DNA of 64,000 nt from a virus (taxonomy: Duplodnaviria > Caudoviricetes). Below the pieces are notes generated by a model that was not told where the DNA came from, did no database searches, and was given only the letters and a program-made list of their open reading frames with translations. Of the stretch, positions 17,069-47,363 are shown in pieces; the stretch's first letter is position 1, and each line of letters begins with the position of its first letter. Position numbers and translations under genes: made by a program. The stretch lies in IMG/VR virus record IMGVR_UViG_3300020598_000119; one strand, given 5' to 3'.

Positions 17069-19345
17069 TTAATCATCGTCGTAATCGTAGGTTTCATGGG
17101 TGTAATTCTGCTCGTCTTCTACGTGTTGCTCAGAATTTTCCTCAGGAACGATTGGCTCAAGCTGCCTGACTTCATCGGCCGTCATAACCTCAAGAACGTC
17201 GCCATTCTCATCAATAGCTCCCGTTTTTCGGTTCACTCGGACGGTTCCAGCTTCTGCCGGGATTGAGAATTCATCAAATGAAACAGCCCCATCAATAGCA
17301 TCAGCAACACTTCGTACTAGTGGCGCTGCACTCGAACCACCAGCTGCGCCATTATAGAGGGGACCGTGGTCATCCCTTCCAATCCATCCAACGATAACCA
17401 CCTCAGGGCCGTATGCCGCAAACCATGCGTCCCGTGACTTGTTCGTAGTGCCTGTCTTGCCTGCCAATGGTTTCTTGAAGCCAGAGAAGGCCTTCTGCGC
17501 GGTACCAGCCTTGATCACGCCCTCAAGGATAGATGTCATCTTGGCGACATCCATAGGCTCAAATGCACGCTGTCTAACGACATCCTTGCTGAGTAGAAGC
17601 TTGGCGTCCACTCGATATCCGCCATTTGCGAAAGAGGAGTAGGCGCTGGCAACTTCAAGCGGTGTCGCCTCGGCAGCACCTAGAGCCATCGCATACGAAG
17701 CATTCGCAGGCATCGTGAAACCAGCTCGGGTGGCCACATCGACTACGCGATCCATACCGAGATCGTAGAGGAGACGAACAGTCGAGAGATTGCGAGACAA
17801 CTCCAGCGAGCGACGGAACGTGATCATACCCATGCCACCGGACGAACCGCCACTCGGCCGCCAGTCTTTCATCCCAGCACCTTGATCGATTGCTATCGGG
17901 CTATCGAGTACTGGAGAGACAGCGTTATAGCCTGCTTCGATGGCCGCCATATAAACAAACGGCTTGAACACCGACCCAGTCTGGCGCTTTGCCTGTGTCG
18001 CCCTATCGAATTCGCTCGTTTCGCCGCTGAACCCGCCAGCAAGGCCAAGCACCGATCCATCACGAGGGTCCATAACGACCACAGCCCCTTGAAGCTCAGG
18101 CAACTGGACAAGCTCCAACCCCTTGCCGAGATCAGCAAGCAAGACCACGTCGCCTTGTCTGAGAACAGCATTCGCGCGCTTCTTGGATGTTGCCCACGAC
18201 AGGCTCGCACCTTTGATGGTCACCTCGCCGTTTTCCGTGGCTAATGTCGCGTCACGATCAGACTTCAATACGACAGATACGATCCAGTCCTCAGCTCCTT
18301 CAGGCTTTGCCAACTGAGGGGAAGACCAATCAATCACACCAGCATATCCTCGCTTCAGAGGTCCACGCCAACCAGATTTGCGATCCTCAAGGACAAGGTG
18401 GCGTCGCAATTCAGCATGTGCGGCCCTCTGAACTCGCGAATTGATAGTCGAAACGACCTGCCCGCCACCTTCATAAAGTTGCTTTGCGCCACGTTCTTGC
18501 AACAACTGTCGTCGAACAGCTTCCTGTGCGTACCACATCGCTGGATCGTTCTCGGCAAGAGTAGCATCAGATTTATGGGCCGTAATCGGTGCGGAAGACG
18601 CTATCTGCTGTTCCTGAGCCGAAATGAATCCGTTCTCCTGCATCCTGCGAAGCACGTAGTTCCGGCGCTCAAGGGCACGACCAGGATTGATAAATGGATT
18701 GGCTGCACTTGGTGCTTTAGGAAGGCCTGCCAACATAGCGGCTTCCTCAATGGTCAACTCGGATAGCTCCTTTCCAAAATAGGTTTGAGCGGCCACAGCC
18801 ACTCCATAGGCTCCAGCGCCGAAATAAATTTGATTGAGATAAATCTCTAAAACACGATCCTTACCGACATCGCGATCAACCTTAAGGGCGAGGATGCCTT
18901 CCTTGATTTTACGGTCAAATGTACGCTCCGATGTCAAAAGGACATTCTTGACCACTTGCTGAGTGATGGTCGAGCCGCCTTCAAGTCGAGAGTCAGGACC
19001 TGATTTCAAATTCGACAGAGTCGCGCGGGCTATTGCACTGGCATCGACACCGTGATGCTTCCAGTAGTTGCCGTCCTCTGCCGCTATGAAAGCCGAGACA
19101 ACCACATTCGGGATAGCCTTCAATGGAACGAATTTGCGATGTTCTTTGGCATGAATCCCGAGCGTCACTCCATCGCTCGATACGATGGTCGTCCCCTCAG
19201 ACGGAGACCATGAAATGAGTTGTTTATGGTCTGGAAGTGTCTGCTCCACCTGCTTGATGTAGGCTATAGAGGTTGAGCCAACCAATACAGCTCCAGTCAA
19301 GCCAAGGACAGAAATCCCTGACATGAATGTCTTTGCCAAACTCAT
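17069..19345 (-). CDS. Class A penicillin-binding protein (PBP1A)
   Basis: AAED..Y..H.G, GGSTITQQ, RKIKE, YLNQIYFG, SVFK, SRN, KTGT. Confidence 0.95.
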   Translation of the reverse strand: MSLAKTFMSGISVLGLTGAVLVGSTSIAYIKQVEQTLPDHKQLISWSPSEGTTIVSSDGVTLGIHAKEHRKFVPLKAIPNVVVSAFIAAEDGNYWKHHGVDASAIARATLSNLKSGPDSRLEGGSTITQQVVKNVLLTSERTFDRKIKEGILALKVDRDVGKDRVLEIYLNQIYFGAGAYGVAVAAQTYFGKELSELTIEEAAMLAGLPKAPSAANPFINPGRALERRNYVLRRMQENGFISAQEQQIASSAPITAHKSDATLAENDPAMWYAQEAVRRQLLQERGAKQLYEGGGQVVSTINSRVQRAAHAELRRHLVLEDRKSGWRGPLKRGYAGVIDWSSPQLAKPEGAEDWIVSVVLKSDRDATLATENGEVTIKGASLSWATSKKRANAVLRQGDVVLLADLGKGLELVQLPELQGAVVVMDPRDGSVLGLAGGFSGETSEFDRATQAKRQTGSVFKPFVYMAAIEAGYNAVSPVLDSPIAIDQGAGMKDWRPSGGSSGGMGMITFRRSLELSRNLSTVRLLYDLGMDRVVDVATRAGFTMPANASYAMALGAAEATPLEVASAYSSFANGGYRVDAKLLLSKDVVRQRAFEPMDVAKMTSILEGVIKAGTAQKAFSGFKKPLAGKTGTTNKSRDAWFAAYGPEVVIVGWIGRDDHGPLYNGAAGGSSAAPLVRSVADAIDGAVSFDEFSIPAEAGTVRVNRKTGAIDENGDVLEVMTADEVRQLEPIVPEENSEQHVEDEQNYTHETYDYDDD

Positions 19346-19920
19346 TTCTGTCTAGCCTTCTTGTTGACGCTGAACATAGGAGGAAGGTTGGTGGCCAATG
19401 CAAACAGATAGCTCTTTGTAGGCTGCTTACCAGGCAACAGAGGAACAGGAGAGTCCTGGTAGATTTTTCCATACTCAAGAAGCGCTTTTACGGCGTCCTG
19501 CGCCACATGCCTTGACTTAGCCAAAAGCCCCCAGGCTTGACGTGCTACGTTCGCATAATCCCGAGAAAGGCTGGCTCCTACAGTCACCATGACAACCTGG
19601 GTGGCAACCATTTCCCACTTGCAGGCCATCACATAGATGTCTTTCATATTGCTACCGTCAGTATTATCGAAGGCCCCTTCAAGGCGCGTATATTGATCAT
19701 GTAATGCATCCAGCACCGTAGTGATTGTGTCAGGCTGAATTTTCATTGGCTGATGAGAAATCTCACGCCCCCAATGCGAGGCAGCTTTAAGAAGCAAGGC
19801 ATTCGAAACAGCAAGCGCCGAGCAGCGTTCGACAGCGGACACTGAGCCGATAAAGGCTATTAACTCAGGGGCGATTACAGCAAGCGCGTCCTGCCCTTTG
19901 CTCGTCCGCAATTTGGCCAA
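19342..19920 (-). CDS. Hypothetical protein
   Basis: 192-aa ORF, TTG start with SD AGGAG, overlaps the PBP1A start. Confidence 0.7.
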   Translation of the reverse strand: MAKLRTSKGQDALAVIAPELIAFIGSVSAVERCSALAVSNALLLKAASHWGREISHQPMKIQPDTITTVLDALHDQYTRLEGAFDNTDGSNMKDIYVMACKWEMVATQVVMVTVGASLSRDYANVARQAWGLLAKSRHVAQDAVKALLEYGKIYQDSPVPLLPGKQPTKSYLFALATNLPPMFSVNKKARQK

Positions 19921-20047
19921 AGTCGAATTCTCCTGAAACTGTAATTCTATGATGGTTCAGCAATAGCGACTTCGCAACGAATTTTGCTTTGAAATTAATC
20001 TTTCTCAATTATTTAGGAAGGAGATTCTTAGTCGGTCACCACGTCGC

Positions 20048-20076
20048 TTGTTCGTATCTACGAAATCGGTTATAGC
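20048..20076 (+). promoter_or_regulatory. Putative sigma70 promoter P1 of the Lys leader
   Basis: TTGTTC-N17-TATAGC upstream of the leader ORF. Confidence 0.45.
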
Positions 20077-20103
20077 TATTGAGATAAACGTTAGGAACTC
20101 AAG

Positions 20104-20157
20104 ATGTCCGTCACTTTCACAGCACTCAAACGAAAACTTTGGCACTGCGCGTCATAG
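20104..20157 (+). CDS. Putative attenuator leader peptide MSVTFTALKRKLWHCAS (Lys sensor)
   Basis: SD AGGA; AAA-CGA-AAA codons; followed by terminator/antiterminator and two tRNA-Lys genes. Confidence 0.6.
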   Translation: MSVTFTALKRKLWHCAS

Positions 20158-20183
20158 CGGCAGGATATCCGTTCTCTTTGACC

Positions 20184-20211
20184 AGAGCCGCGATGTCCTC
20201 GCGGCTTTTTT
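20184..20211 (+). terminator. Attenuator terminator upstream of the tRNA-Lys pair
   Basis: AGAGCCGCGA-TGTCC-TCGCGGCT followed by a U-tract; 5' arm can alternatively pair with CATAGCGGC (20153-20161). Confidence 0.75.
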
Positions 20212-20294
20212 AATGCGCAGTGCGAAACCATCCCTCGAATTCGATGGCTTTCGATGCGCTATTTTAGCGCCACGGAACTCCTTTGATTATTGCC

Positions 20295-20362
20295 TAACTG
20301 ATTGAAATTTATATCTTTTTTCTATTTTTGTTGTTGACTTGGTTTTTTGGGTATGCCATATA
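20295..20362 (+). promoter_or_regulatory. tRNA promoter cassette P2 (IHF-like site, T-tracts, -35/-10)
   Basis: TAACTGATTGAAA starts 39 bp before TTGACT-N17-CATATA; same layout at the other two tRNA clusters. Confidence 0.7.
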
Positions 20363-20375
20363 TAGATCATCAAAT

Positions 20376-20454
20376 GGACGCGTAGCTGAGTAGGTTTTAG
20401 CGGGGGACTTTTAATCCCCGTCTTACGTGGGTTCGAATCCCACCGCGTTCACCA
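20376..20454 (+). tRNA. tRNA-Lys(TTT)
   Basis: Cloverleaf; anticodon arm GGGGA-CTTTTAA-TCCCC; GTTCGAATC; CCA. Confidence 0.93.
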
Positions 20455-20458
20455 CTAC

Positions 20459-20535
20459 GGACGTATAGCTCAGTTGGTTAGAGCGGCGGTCTCTTAAACC
20501 GCAGGTCCTCGGTTCGAACCCGAGTGCGTCTTCCA
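20459..20535 (+). tRNA. tRNA-Lys(CTT)
   Basis: GCGGT-CTCTTAA-ACCGC; GTTCGAAC; CCA. Confidence 0.93.
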
Positions 20536-20606
20536 TTTTCCCGCCGATTAGATTCCTGCAAATGCGTGTGAAATAATCAAAGAGAAGAATTTCTCGGAGA
20601 AAAACT

Positions 20607-38622: not shown

Positions 38623-38688
38623 ATGAACGGCATGCAGCACATTCTGCGCACTGAAGAACGTCGGGAGGACGATACCACCCGGCGGTAG
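38623..38688 (+). CDS. Putative attenuator leader peptide MNGMQHILRTEERREDDTTRR (Glu/Asp sensor)
   Basis: SD GGAG; GAA GAA..GAG GAC GAT codons match downstream tRNA-Glu(TTC), Glu(CTC) and Asp(GTC). Confidence 0.72.
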   Translation: MNGMQHILRTEERREDDTTRR

Positions 38689-38747
38689 CCGTTTATCGGC
38701 GGCCGTCAAGCACGCGGCCGCTCAAAAAGATATCTGAATTCTTTTTT

Positions 38748-38777
38748 AGGGGTCGCATTTGCGGCCCCTTTTATTTT
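38748..38777 (+). terminator. Attenuator terminator upstream of the Glu/Asp tRNAs
   Basis: AGGGGTCGC-ATTT-GCGGCCCCT-TTTATTTT. Confidence 0.8.
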
Positions 38778-47176: not shown

Positions 47177-47299
47177 ATGCATTCCGTGCGCGCTATCGCG
47201 ATTAATACCATCAACGTCACCGCCAATATGGCGGGCGGACGTGGTATTGTCGTGCGCTCAGCACAGAAGGGTGTCGAAGTAGGGATTAACGCGAGGTAG
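47177..47299 (+). CDS. Putative attenuator leader peptide MHSVRAIAINTINVTANMAGGRGIVVRSAQKGVEVGINAR (Ala/Ile/Asn/Thr/Val/Met/Gly sensor)
   Basis: SD-like AGGAG/AAGG; 20 of codons 6-26 are read by tRNAs of the downstream array. Confidence 0.78.
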   Translation: MHSVRAIAINTINVTANMAGGRGIVVRSAQKGVEVGINAR

Positions 47300-47325
47300 C
47301 AAAATCCCCAAGGTTCTGAAGAACC

Positions 47326-47363
47326 AAGGCCCCTTCTGGAAACGGAAGGGGCCTTTTCTTTTT
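47326..47363 (+). terminator. Attenuator terminator upstream of the 14-tRNA array
   Basis: AAGGCCCCTTCTG-GAAA-CGGAAGGGGCCTT-TTCTTTTT; 5' arm complementary to CAGAAGGG (47264-47271) in the leader. Confidence 0.85.

What the first reader, a model, noticed from the sequence alone, without database searches (positions are those of the whole stretch)
20104..20211. Lys-sensing leader with classic 1:2 / 2:3 / 3:4 attenuator geometry before two tRNA-Lys genes
Leader MSVTFTALKRKLWHCAS has AAA-CGA-AAA at 20128-20136. Segment 1 CTGCGC (20145-20150) pairs with GC-G-GCAG. Segment 2 CATAGCGGC (20153-20161, spanning the stop) pairs 8/9 with the terminator arm GCCGCGATG. The 3:4 pair is the U-tailed terminator. 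A ribosome stalled on the Lys codons would mask segment 1 and free segment 2. It is the weakest of the three by codon count (two Lys codons, AAA only), but the geometry is textbook. tRNA-Lys is the established target of PrrC and PARIS AriB.
Basis: partly seen in the sequence, partly recalled or inferred. Interest (0 to 1): 0.8.

Follow-up and report, generated by a model that had tools for sequence, protein, structure and literature searches.

The report
Lysine leader attenuator before tRNA-Lys genes
A 17-codon translated mini-gene with a Lys-Arg-Lys core and a switchable transcription stop lies upstream of two lysine-tRNA genes on a giant low-GC soil replicon; it is kept, with compensating base changes, in ten diverged relatives, and probably raises tRNA-Lys output when ribosomes wait at lysine codons, a control of tRNA genes I could not find published.

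Summary

Nine further lineages from soil and sediment assemblies (neighbour proteins 37-96% identical, GC 44-67%) keep the same module. Each has a 17-20-codon ORF with a Lys cluster, a hairpin with U-tract, a promoter (P2) and then tRNA-Lys(UUU) and tRNA-Lys(CUU).

A longer antiterminator (20156-20177 with 20184-20206) is, with covariation.
- **Masked folds fit attenuation.** A ribosome stalled on the second Lys codon favours the antiterminator in seven of ten lineages. A ribosome at the stop codon favours the terminator in all ten.
Promoter P2 lies between the terminator and the tRNAs. A covarying helix joins codons 12-16 to the bases just after the U-tract; its role is unexplained.

Sibling tRNA arrays of the same ~1.2-Mb element carry clearly codon-matched leaders, which I checked. 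This scan has noted the same logic before on other DNA (giant phages); those are AI notes I did not test. I found no paper on it. There is no experimental evidence.

Verdict: probable ribosome-mediated attenuator of tRNA genes, a new variant of a known kind.

The parts
20047..20075 (+). Promoter P1 candidate: CTTGTT (20047-52), 17-nt spacer, TTATAG (20070-75). The expected start is near 20082.
   Evidence: CTTG..N17..TATA is kept in all six close lineages. It matches the alphaproteobacterial sigma-70 type consensus as I recall it (own knowledge). No start-site data exist. In the four distant lineages an ECF sigma gene ends here instead.
20093..20096 (+). Shine-Dalgarno AGGA, 7 nt before the ATG
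   Evidence: AGGA/AAGGAAA is kept in the close lineages.
20104..20157 (+). Leader ORF of 17 codons (the peptide given in the finding) plus TAG
   Evidence: Start, stop and length are kept in 10 lineages. Codons 2-7 vary freely. The Leu-Lys-Arg-Lys core and the His codon are kept.
20128..20136 (+). Candidate sensor codons AAA-CGA-AAA (Lys-Arg-Lys)
   Evidence: Invariant in the close clade. AAG replaces AAA in L065, L069 and L071, and L067 has five Lys codons, so the constraint is on Lys codons rather than on RNA sequence.
20138..20152 (+). Segment B (segment 1): codons 12-16. It pairs either with 20157-63 (1:2 hairpin) or with E.
20145..20163 (+). 1:2 hairpin (anti-antiterminator) spanning the stop codon
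   Evidence: 78% of cells paired in 10 lineages; covariation score reached by 5/500 shuffles. The G-to-A changes in L056 and L063 fall on the bulge.
20156..20177 (+). Segment 2: 5' strand of the conserved antiterminator, starting inside the stop codon
   Evidence: It pairs with 20184-20206. dG is -22.9 against -13.9 to -15.5 for the terminator.
20184..20211 (+). Intrinsic terminator: stem 20185-93 / 20199-207, loop 20194-98, U-tract 20206-11. The whole block is also the 3' strand of the antiterminator.
   Evidence: The loop bases covary with segment 2 (alignment A2 columns 81/121 and 82/120).
20213..20227 (+). Segment E: pairs with B (20138-52), 1-3 nt after the U-tract. It exists only in read-through RNA.
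   Evidence: dG -17.6 to -29.9 in all 10 lineages. 84% of cells paired, 13 double-change cells, 0/500 shuffles. The exact 9-mer occurs only at these two places in the window.
20256..20270 (+). Small 4-bp hairpin F in the spacer (GCGC, 7-nt loop, GCGC)
   Evidence: Kept with one double change in the close clade. Weak evidence.
20302..20362 (+). Promoter P2: TTGAAA-led A/T-rich upstream block, TTGACT (20334-39), -10 near 20356-62
   Evidence: Conserved in all 10 lineages. The same block precedes the other two tRNA arrays of the window.
20376..20454 (+). tRNA-Lys(UUU)
20459..20535 (+). tRNA-Lys(CUU)

Best explanation
This is a ribosome-mediated (leader-peptide) transcription attenuator tied to the two tRNA-Lys genes.

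**Proposed sequence of events**
1. Transcripts start at P1. In distant relatives they come from an upstream ECF sigma gene whose stop codon abuts the leader ATG.
2. The 17-codon ORF is translated.
3. If no ribosome is present, or the ribosome runs on to the last codons or the stop, segment 2 (20156-77) is tied up. Either segment B holds it in the 1:2 hairpin, or the ribosome covers it. The hairpin 20185-20207 then forms and RNA polymerase stops at the U-tract.
4. If the ribosome waits with the second Lys codon (20134-36) in its A site, it covers B. Segment 2 pairs with the terminator's 5' arm, loop and 3' arm, and polymerase reads on through E, the spacer and P2 into the tRNA genes.
5. This read-through would add to the basal synthesis from P2. 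The result would be negative feedback on the supply of usable Lys-tRNA for an element whose GC content (51%) differs from its host's (65%).
6. After read-through, E pairs with B and closes a long helix. I infer that this locks or processes the leader.

**Shown here:** the sequence features, their conservation and covariation, and the fold preferences in silico.

**Inferred:** translation of the ORF, termination at the hairpin, Lys dependence, and the contribution of read-through to tRNA levels.
For: 1. **Conservation.** 20104-20210 is identical in G001, while the aligned 1.3 kb is 94% identical.
2. **Ten lineages share the module.** Their flanking proteins are 37-96% identical and their GC is 44-67%. 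Each has an ORF of 17-20 codons, a Lys cluster (LKRK, KKQKR or KQKRKSK), a hairpin with U-tract, P2 and tRNA-Lys(UUU) plus tRNA-Lys(CUU). The ATG-to-tRNA distance is 265-296 nt.
3. **ORF evolution fits a leader.** Codons 2-7 turn over. Lys codons persist, and AAA and AAG interchange in distant lineages.
4. **Antiterminator covariation.** 79% of cells paired, 10 pairs and 17 cells with double changes, 0/500 shuffles, slid controls 34-56%. Terminator-loop bases covary with segment 2.
5. **1:2 hairpin.** 78% paired, 5/500 shuffles.
6. **Masked MFE folds.** A stall at the second core Lys gives the antiterminator in win, L060, L064, L061, L069 and L071, and in L056 with a 16-nt mask. A ribosome at the stop gives the terminator in all ten. 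No ribosome gives the terminator in nine.
7. **Sibling arrays, checked by me in G001.** A run of 15 Ser/Gln codons precedes the Ser/Gln array. A Thr/Trp/Cys/Arg-rich leader precedes the Trp-Thr-Thr-Cys-Arg array. In both, the terminator abuts the first tRNA with no P2. RRRF precedes Phe/Arg. In the window, codons 6-26 of the 47177 ORF use almost only amino acids of the 14-tRNA array.
8. **The element depends on its host.** The G001 contig has no 16S rRNA, S12 or RpoB; these lie on 65%-GC contigs.
9. **RNA library contig.** One contig runs unbroken from 20021 to 20278, across the hairpin and E. It is low depth and may be DNA.
Against: - There are only two Lys codons here, which is not significant on its own (p about 0.22).
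- The three-state pattern arises in 5.6% of shuffles.
- By MFE the antiterminator window is broad (A-site codons about 5-14 in the window), so folding does not single out the Lys codons.
- In L063, L065 and L067 the terminator stays the MFE under a stall.
- P2 between terminator and tRNAs means the tRNAs do not need read-through. A strong P2 would make the attenuator's contribution small.
- The Arg codon CGA is as conserved as the Lys codons and is unexplained.
- Segment E cannot act in the termination decision, so part of the conserved structure is not explained by the model.
- There are no transcript ends, ribosome data or genetics.
Confidence: 0.6

Rival explanations
1. It is a translation-dependent attenuator, but it does not sense Lys-tRNA specifically. 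It could report general translation speed or ribosome availability. It could depend on slow decoding of the rare CGA Arg codon. Or the conserved Lys-Arg-Lys ... His peptide could arrest the ribosome in response to some ligand, as TnaC, SpeFL or Erm leaders do.
For: - CGA is kept in 9 of 10 lineages, and a His codon follows at a fixed distance.
- The antiterminator is favoured for stalls over about ten codons, not only at Lys.
- Only 2-3 Lys codons are present in most lineages.
Against: - The module is always linked to tRNA-Lys genes, even where neighbouring genes differ.
- Sibling leaders of the same element track the amino acids of their own arrays.
- The His codon lies in segment B, whose bases are constrained by pairing with E. 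Its conservation therefore need not reflect the peptide.
Confidence: 0.15
2. There is no regulatory link to the tRNAs. The ORF plus hairpin would be an independent small gene (a 17-residue peptide or a roughly 130-nt sRNA). Alternatively it is the 3' end and terminator of the upstream ECF sigma transcript, shielding P2 from incoming transcription. P2 alone would drive the tRNAs.
For: - P2 is conserved and lies downstream of the hairpin.
- In four distant lineages the leader abuts an ECF sigma gene, so the hairpin also ends that mRNA.
- Attenuator RNAs and leader peptides can act in trans in a related bacterium (S. meliloti rnTrpL/peTrpL, PMC7298713).
Against: - A plain terminator needs neither a covarying alternative pairing that consumes both arms and the loop nor a translated ORF placed so that the stop codon opens that pairing.
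- The close clade lost the sigma gene but kept the module with its own promoter.
- Segment E implies that selection acts on read-through RNA.
- The N-terminal two fifths of the peptide are not conserved.
Confidence: 0.15
3. The main function is RNA processing or stability. B:E plus the antiterminator would form a roughly 35-bp interrupted duplex, an RNase III-type site or a protective 5' structure, on a constitutive long transcript. The small ORF would be secondary.
For: - In the close clade the MFE of the full element is one long helix made of B:E plus the antiterminator.
- B:E is the best-supported helix.
- An RNA-library contig spans the whole element.
Against: - It does not explain the conserved SD, ATG, stop and Lys codons, nor the strong hairpin with U-tract in every lineage.
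- B:E is absent from the three sibling modules tested, so it looks like an add-on rather than the core.
Confidence: 0.08

Closest known systems
Leader-peptide transcription attenuators of amino-acid operons (E. coli trpL, pheL, hisL, leuL, thrL, ilvL; pheL reviewed in PMC3082878)
   Same: - A short SD-led ORF with regulatory codons.
- 1:2, antiterminator and terminator alternatives, with the stop codon at the edge of segment 2.
- A U-tailed intrinsic terminator.
- Ribosome position predicted to choose the fold.
   Different: - The linked genes are tRNA genes, not biosynthetic or synthetase genes. The sensed molecule would therefore be the product itself.
- There are only 2-5 sensor codons, split by an Arg codon.
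- A second promoter lies between terminator and target.
- An extra conserved segment after the U-tract pairs back to segment 1.
Sinorhizobium meliloti trpL attenuator with its sRNA rnTrpL and peptide peTrpL (PMC7298713, PMC7968998)
   Same: - An alphaproteobacterial setting.
- A short terminated leader RNA of about 110-130 nt that encodes a small peptide.
   Different: - That attenuator controls trpE(G). Its RNA and peptide have shown trans functions.
- No trans target is known here, and there is no sequence similarity (Rfam gave nothing).
Anabaena sp. PCC 7120 trn operon: 26 tRNA genes on a megaplasmid, repressed by TrcR and induced under translational stress (PMC10272220)
   Same: An accessory replicon carries a spare tRNA set that is switched on when translation is impaired.
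   Different: - Control there is by a protein repressor at the promoter.
- Control here is by a translated leader and alternative RNA folds, one module per amino-acid group.
T-box riboswitches
   Same: Both are cis-acting leader RNAs that read tRNA status and switch between terminator and antiterminator.
   Different: - T-boxes bind uncharged tRNA directly, need no ORF and control synthetase or amino-acid genes.
- No T-box match was found here, and the ORF is conserved as an ORF.
Codon-matched leader attenuators before tRNA operons of giant phages, noted earlier in this scan (e1-5675543, e1-5381190, e1-5617856, e1-5714076, e1-5709739; AI notes that I did not test)
   Same: The layout and logic are the same: a small ORF written in the codons of the downstream tRNAs, followed by a switchable terminator.
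   Different: - Those are phages. This is a 1.19-Mb low-GC contig of a Mesorhizobium isolate assembly, with DotA/TraY and without the capsid and terminase families I searched.
- The Lys module senses a single amino acid and carries the P2 and E additions.

Membership tests
Ribosome-mediated (leader-peptide) transcription attenuator | Short ORF with a ribosome-binding site and start codon in the leader transcript | tested here: met
   AGGA lies 7 nt before ATG 20104. The ORF has 17 codons. Start, stop and length (17-20 codons) are kept in 10 lineages. In 4 of them the ATG abuts or overlaps the stop of the upstream gene. Translation itself is not shown.
Ribosome-mediated (leader-peptide) transcription attenuator | Regulatory codons cognate to the controlled pathway or product | tested here: inconclusive
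   There are two Lys codons here (p about 0.22 alone) and 2-5 in relatives. They are always kept, always 5 nt before segment B, and always upstream of tRNA-Lys genes. The equally conserved CGA Arg codon is not matched by the downstream tRNAs.
Ribosome-mediated (leader-peptide) transcription attenuator | Intrinsic terminator (GC-rich hairpin plus U-tract) after the ORF | tested here: met
   Hairpin 20185-20207 has dG -15.5 and is followed by U6. Nine of ten lineages scored -9.6 to -25.8 with U-rich tails; L069's bulged hairpin, also followed by a U-run, was identified by eye.
Ribosome-mediated (leader-peptide) transcription attenuator | Antiterminator mutually exclusive with the terminator, and an anti-antiterminator (1:2) | tested here: met
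   - Antiterminator 20156-77 with 20184-20206: 79% paired, 17 double-change cells, 0/500 shuffles.
- 1:2 hairpin: 78% paired.
Ribosome-mediated (leader-peptide) transcription attenuator | Ribosome stalled on the regulatory codons frees the antiterminator; a ribosome at the stop codon or none gives termination | tested here: inconclusive
   The in-silico pattern holds in 7 of 10 lineages. The stall window is broad, and 5.6% of shuffles give the pattern.
Ribosome-mediated (leader-peptide) transcription attenuator | Controlled genes lie directly downstream in the same transcription unit | tested here: inconclusive
   The tRNAs start 165 nt after the U-tract, on the same strand and with no other terminator seen. 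Conserved promoter P2 lies between. Two sibling arrays in G001 have the terminator abutting the first tRNA.
Ribosome-mediated (leader-peptide) transcription attenuator | Read-through responds to supply of the cognate charged tRNA | not testable with these tools
   This needs reporters, Term-seq or toeprinting.
T-box riboswitch | Specifier loop, T-box sequence and stem I architecture (Rfam RF00230) | tested here: not met
   No Rfam match on the + strand of 20048-20300, even at E up to 10. Only tRNAs passed at gathering score.
Lysine riboswitch (L-box, RF00168) | Five-helix lysine-binding aptamer | tested here: not met
   No match.

The most novel reading that the evidence does not exclude
A family of giant, host-dependent soil replicons (GC 44-67%) may regulate each of its tRNA gene sets by its own codon-matched leader-peptide attenuator, so that tRNA genes are fed back on by the decoding speed of their own codons. 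The Lys module would be the minimal, single-amino-acid member. It has an added post-terminator clamp (E) that acts only on read-through RNA, a sixth element unknown in classical attenuators. The system could serve to match tRNA supply to the element's foreign codon usage, or to replace tRNAs lost to anticodon nucleases.
Probability: 0.5. Interest if true: 0.85.

Novelty: new variant of a known kind. Interest (0 to 1): 0.78.

Why it matters
Leader-peptide attenuation is textbook for amino-acid operons. There, a ribosome senses charged tRNA in order to control enzymes. Here the same device appears to control the tRNA genes themselves.

If that is true, tRNA supply on large accessory replicons and phages is under direct, isoacceptor-group-specific feedback from decoding speed. 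That would bear on three questions:

- how foreign DNA with a mismatched codon usage gets expressed;
- how mobile elements withstand tRNA-cleaving defence systems;
- how to design self-regulating tRNA cassettes.

The Lys module is small (about 130 nt) and conserved. It has clear alternative folds and an unexplained fifth segment, which makes it a convenient model for experiments.

Tried and rejected
**Searches that found nothing**
- Phage and plasmid collections gave only tRNA matches.
- 201 other species of the genus lack the region, and the 120 sampled lack the neighbouring gene.
- A pattern scan of JGI metagenome contigs and IMG/VR for the invariant core found nothing. The relatives came from Logan and ENA assemblies instead.
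- Rfam found no family for the leader.

**Other readings of the sequence**
- The 85-codon ORF 20048-20305 is broken by a 1-nt indel in G001, so it is not a gene.
- The minus-strand 46-codon ORF 20231-20091 was not pursued. The G.U pairs and the U-tract favour the + strand.
- A second ORF starting at 20213 inside E has no SD. Its length ranges from 5 to more than 60 codons, and the A/U of its NUG covaries with B. I rejected it as coding.
- B and E as a DNA inverted repeat or protein site: L065 and L063 keep the pairing only through G.U, which fits RNA.
- The B:E clamp as a general feature of P2-type modules: not seen in the Glu/Asp, 14-tRNA or Phe/Arg modules.

**Leads that failed**
- From memory I thought E. 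coli pheV has an attenuator-like leader. The MG1655 sequence shows none.
- Codon usage of the host contigs by stop-to-stop ORFs was unreliable in 65%-GC DNA, so I did not use it.

**RNA library X5**
- No contig lay over 19968-20020, 20279-20382 or beyond 20545. Holes in low-depth contigs prove nothing.
- The contig starts at 20021, upstream of the predicted P1 start, so it gives no transcript ends.

**Nature of the element**
- No RepC, Terminase_6N or HK97-type capsid match lies on the G001 contig. Its type stays open.

Full report
**1. What is in the window**

The finding's coordinates are exact.
- AGGA lies at 20093-96 and ATG at 20104.
- The ORF has 17 codons, with AAA-CGA-AAA at 20128-36 and TAG at 20155-57.
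- A hairpin at 20185-20207 (7-9 bp, GC-rich, 5-nt loop, about -15.5 kcal/mol) is followed by six U.
- The two tRNA-Lys genes (UUU at 20376-20454, CUU at 20459-20535) are the only Rfam or ARAGORN features nearby.
- The gene upstream (19342-19920) is on the other strand, so the hairpin does not end a long + strand gene here.
- One thing is not in the finding text. Between the hairpin and the tRNAs lies a promoter-like block (P2). It has a TTGAAA-led A/T-rich stretch, TTGACT at 20334-39 and a -10 near 20356-62, and the tRNA starts about 14 nt later. The same block precedes the other two tRNA arrays of the window.

**2. What DNA this is**

- The window is 50% GC. Public runs place it in soil metagenomes.
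- Its only near relative among 185,579 species genomes is contig 2 (1.19 Mb) of Mesorhizobium sp. SP-1A, at 93-94% identity.
- That contig is 51-52% GC, while contigs 1 and 3 of the same assembly are 64.7%.
- The assembly's only 16S rRNA, S12 and RpoB matches lie on other contigs. The three RepC matches, and the capsid and terminase matches, also lie elsewhere.
- The window itself holds PBP1A, a sigma factor, MutL, a UvrD-like helicase, a Pnkp-like protein, DotA/TraY and 19 tRNA genes.
- I therefore read it as a giant accessory element of unsettled type that depends on its host's ribosomes and RNA polymerase.
- Neither the region nor its neighbour gene was found in other species of the genus: the region in 201 others, the gene in the 120 sampled.

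**3. Relatives**

- The 192-aa neighbour has five homologues (67-96% identity) and the roughly 400-aa gene after the tRNAs has eleven (37-90%). All are in Logan, ENA or JGI assemblies.
- I fetched contigs for nine lineages. GC ranges from 44% to 67%.
- Every lineage that has tRNA-Lys genes at this place has the whole module. The parts are a 17-20-codon ORF, a strong hairpin with a U-rich tail, P2 (ATTGAC, 16-17 nt, a TATA-like -10), and tRNA-Lys(UUU) and tRNA-Lys(CUU) in either order. L069 has a third tRNA-Lys(UUU), and L071 has a tRNA-Arg(CCU) just after its pair. The ATG-to-tRNA distance is 265-296 nt.
- In the close clade the module has its own promoter-like CTTG-N17-TATA (P1). In the four distant lineages the leader ATG abuts or overlaps the stop of an ECF sigma gene.

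**4. How the ORF evolves**

- Codons 2-7 change freely.
- The core Leu-Lys-Arg-Lys is kept, or appears as KKQKR (L065) or KQKRKSK (L067).
- In the close clade AAA-CGA-AAA is invariant. In L065, L069 and L071 AAG replaces AAA. The constraint is therefore on Lys codons of either kind, which the two downstream tRNAs read.
- The last core Lys codon always ends 5 nt before segment B. A ribosome waiting there would cover B.
- In this window alone, two Lys in 16 codons is unremarkable (about 22% at the 5.6% Lys frequency). The argument rests on retention across lineages, not on counts.
- The CGA Arg codon is equally conserved (9 of 10 lineages), and I cannot explain it.

**5. RNA folds**

It returned a longer helix in which 20156-77, starting in the stop codon, pairs with 20184-20206, that is both arms and the loop of the terminator.
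- Counts on the ten-lineage alignment A2:

| Helix | Cells paired | Double-change cells | Shuffle control | Slid controls |
|---|---|---|---|---|
| New antiterminator (20156-77 / 20184-20206) | 79% | 17, in 10 pairs | 0/500 | 34-56% |
| 1:2 hairpin | 78% | 4 | 5/500 | 22-71% |

- In the 1:2 hairpin, the changes in L056 and L063 fall on the bulge.
- The window's antiterminator is about -23 kcal/mol, against -14 to -15.5 for the terminator.

**6. Ribosome masks**

- Folding the nascent RNA up to the 3' arm gives the terminator with no ribosome (nine of ten lineages) and with a ribosome at the stop codon (all ten).
- A ribosome whose A site holds the second core Lys gives the antiterminator in win, L060, L064, L061, L069 and L071, and in L056 with a 16-nt mask. 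L063, L065 and L067 keep the terminator as the MFE.
- Scanning every A-site codon shows a broad antitermination window in this window (codons about 5-14). It is narrower in L056 (from the second Lys) and in L069 (from Arg/Lys).
- The three-state pattern occurs in 56 of 1000 shuffles of 20137-20183. The folds are therefore compatible with Lys sensing but do not prove it.

**7. The unexpected segment E**

- Bases 20213-27, which begin 1-3 nt after the U-tract, pair with codons 12-16 (20138-52).
- The duplex is -17.6 to -29.9 kcal/mol in all ten lineages.
- It covaries: U-A becomes C-G in four lineages at one position and U-A becomes A-U at another. 84% of cells are paired and 0/500 shuffles reach this.
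- G.U pairs point to the + strand RNA.
- The exact 9-mer core occurs only at these two places in 64 kb.
- E can exist only in read-through RNA, so it cannot decide termination.
- In the close clade the full element folds into one long helix made of B:E plus the antiterminator. I suggest it locks or processes read-through RNA, but this is unexplained.
- The clamp is absent from three sibling modules.

**8. Context that raises the prior**

- I checked sibling arrays in G001. The Ser/Gln array follows a leader with 15 consecutive Ser/Gln codons. The Trp-Thr-Thr-Cys-Arg array follows a leader rich in exactly those residues. In both, the terminator abuts the first tRNA and there is no P2.
- The Phe/Arg array follows a leader with RRRF and then P2.
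- In the window, codons 6-26 of the 47177 ORF use almost only amino acids of the 14-tRNA array, and EERREDD precedes Glu-Asp-Glu.
- The scan's earlier notes report the same logic in this genome and in several giant phages. These are AI notes and not independent evidence.

**9. Expression**

One metatranscriptome library has a contig identical to the window from 20021 to 20278. It bridges the leader, hairpin and E. Another covers the tRNAs. Depth is about 3 and DNA carry-over cannot be excluded, so I give this little weight.

**10. Literature**

Six of the seven searches looked for leader peptides or attenuators in front of tRNA genes and found nothing. The nearest items are these:
- classical attenuators (PMC3082878);
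- the S. meliloti trpL RNA and peptide (PMC7298713);
- the repressor-controlled Anabaena trn operon (PMC10272220).

E. coli pheV, which I misremembered as a precedent, has no leader. tRNA-Lys cleavage by PARIS AriB is published (PMC11464382). Nothing here ties the module to it beyond the RNA-repair genes nearby.

**11. Verdict**

- It works like a leader-peptide attenuator. Membership in that mechanistic class is met on structure and untested on function.
- It is a new variant because its linked genes are tRNAs.
- My confidence in the Lys-sensing attenuator reading is about 0.6.

Noticed in passing
G001 contig C2 (1.19 Mb), matching the whole window; L076-L079: The window's relative is a 1.19-Mb contig of 51-52% GC in an isolate assembly whose other large contigs are 64.7% GC. 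It has no 16S rRNA, S12, RpoB, RepC, Terminase_6N or HK97-type capsid match. It does carry PBP1A, MutL, sigma factors, DotA/TraY, RNA-repair genes and many tRNA arrays. It is a giant host-dependent element of unsettled type.
   Followed up: partly
L082:1990-2090 and L080:1890-2040 (G001), about 38-55 kb and 17 kb before the window start: In two sibling tRNA arrays (Ser/Gln and Trp-Thr-Thr-Cys-Arg) a codon-matched leader and terminator abut the first tRNA with no second promoter. One leader has 15 consecutive Ser/Gln codons.
   Followed up: partly
window 47177-47363 and 38623-38777: Two further leaders lie in the window. A 40-codon ORF has codons 6-26 that use almost only Ala/Ile/Asn/Thr/Val/Met/Gly, ahead of the 14-tRNA array. 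An ORF with EERREDD precedes tRNA Glu-Asp-Glu. Each is followed by a terminator, a second short ORF and the shared P2 block.
   Followed up: partly
L065:1926-2453, L067:997-1515, L069:1-520, L071:1-49: In the four distant lineages an ECF-type sigma factor gene ends at or overlaps the Lys leader's ATG (ATGA-type junctions). The leader is therefore co-transcribed, and perhaps translationally coupled, with a sigma gene. The close clade has lost this gene.
   Followed up: no
window 20540-20565: A block just after tRNA-Lys(CUU) (CGCCGATTAG.TT..TGCA) is kept in the close lineages, L064 among them. Its function is unknown.
   Followed up: no
L069:995-1081 and L071:434-524: ARAGORN calls tRNA-Lys(UUU) genes of 87 and 91 nt in two distant lineages, which is unusually long for tRNA-Lys. 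The window's tRNA-Lys(UUU) is 79 nt.
   Followed up: no
window 20103-20109 and 20192-20198: The start-codon region and the terminator loop share GATGTCC. Both can pair with segment 2, so the untranslated RNA may also hide its own start codon. This is seen in only some lineages.
   Followed up: partly
window 20228-20255 and the same place in relatives: The spacer after segment E is C-rich and G-poor in most lineages (for example CCATCCC). It could be a Rho loading site acting on read-through RNA.
   Followed up: no
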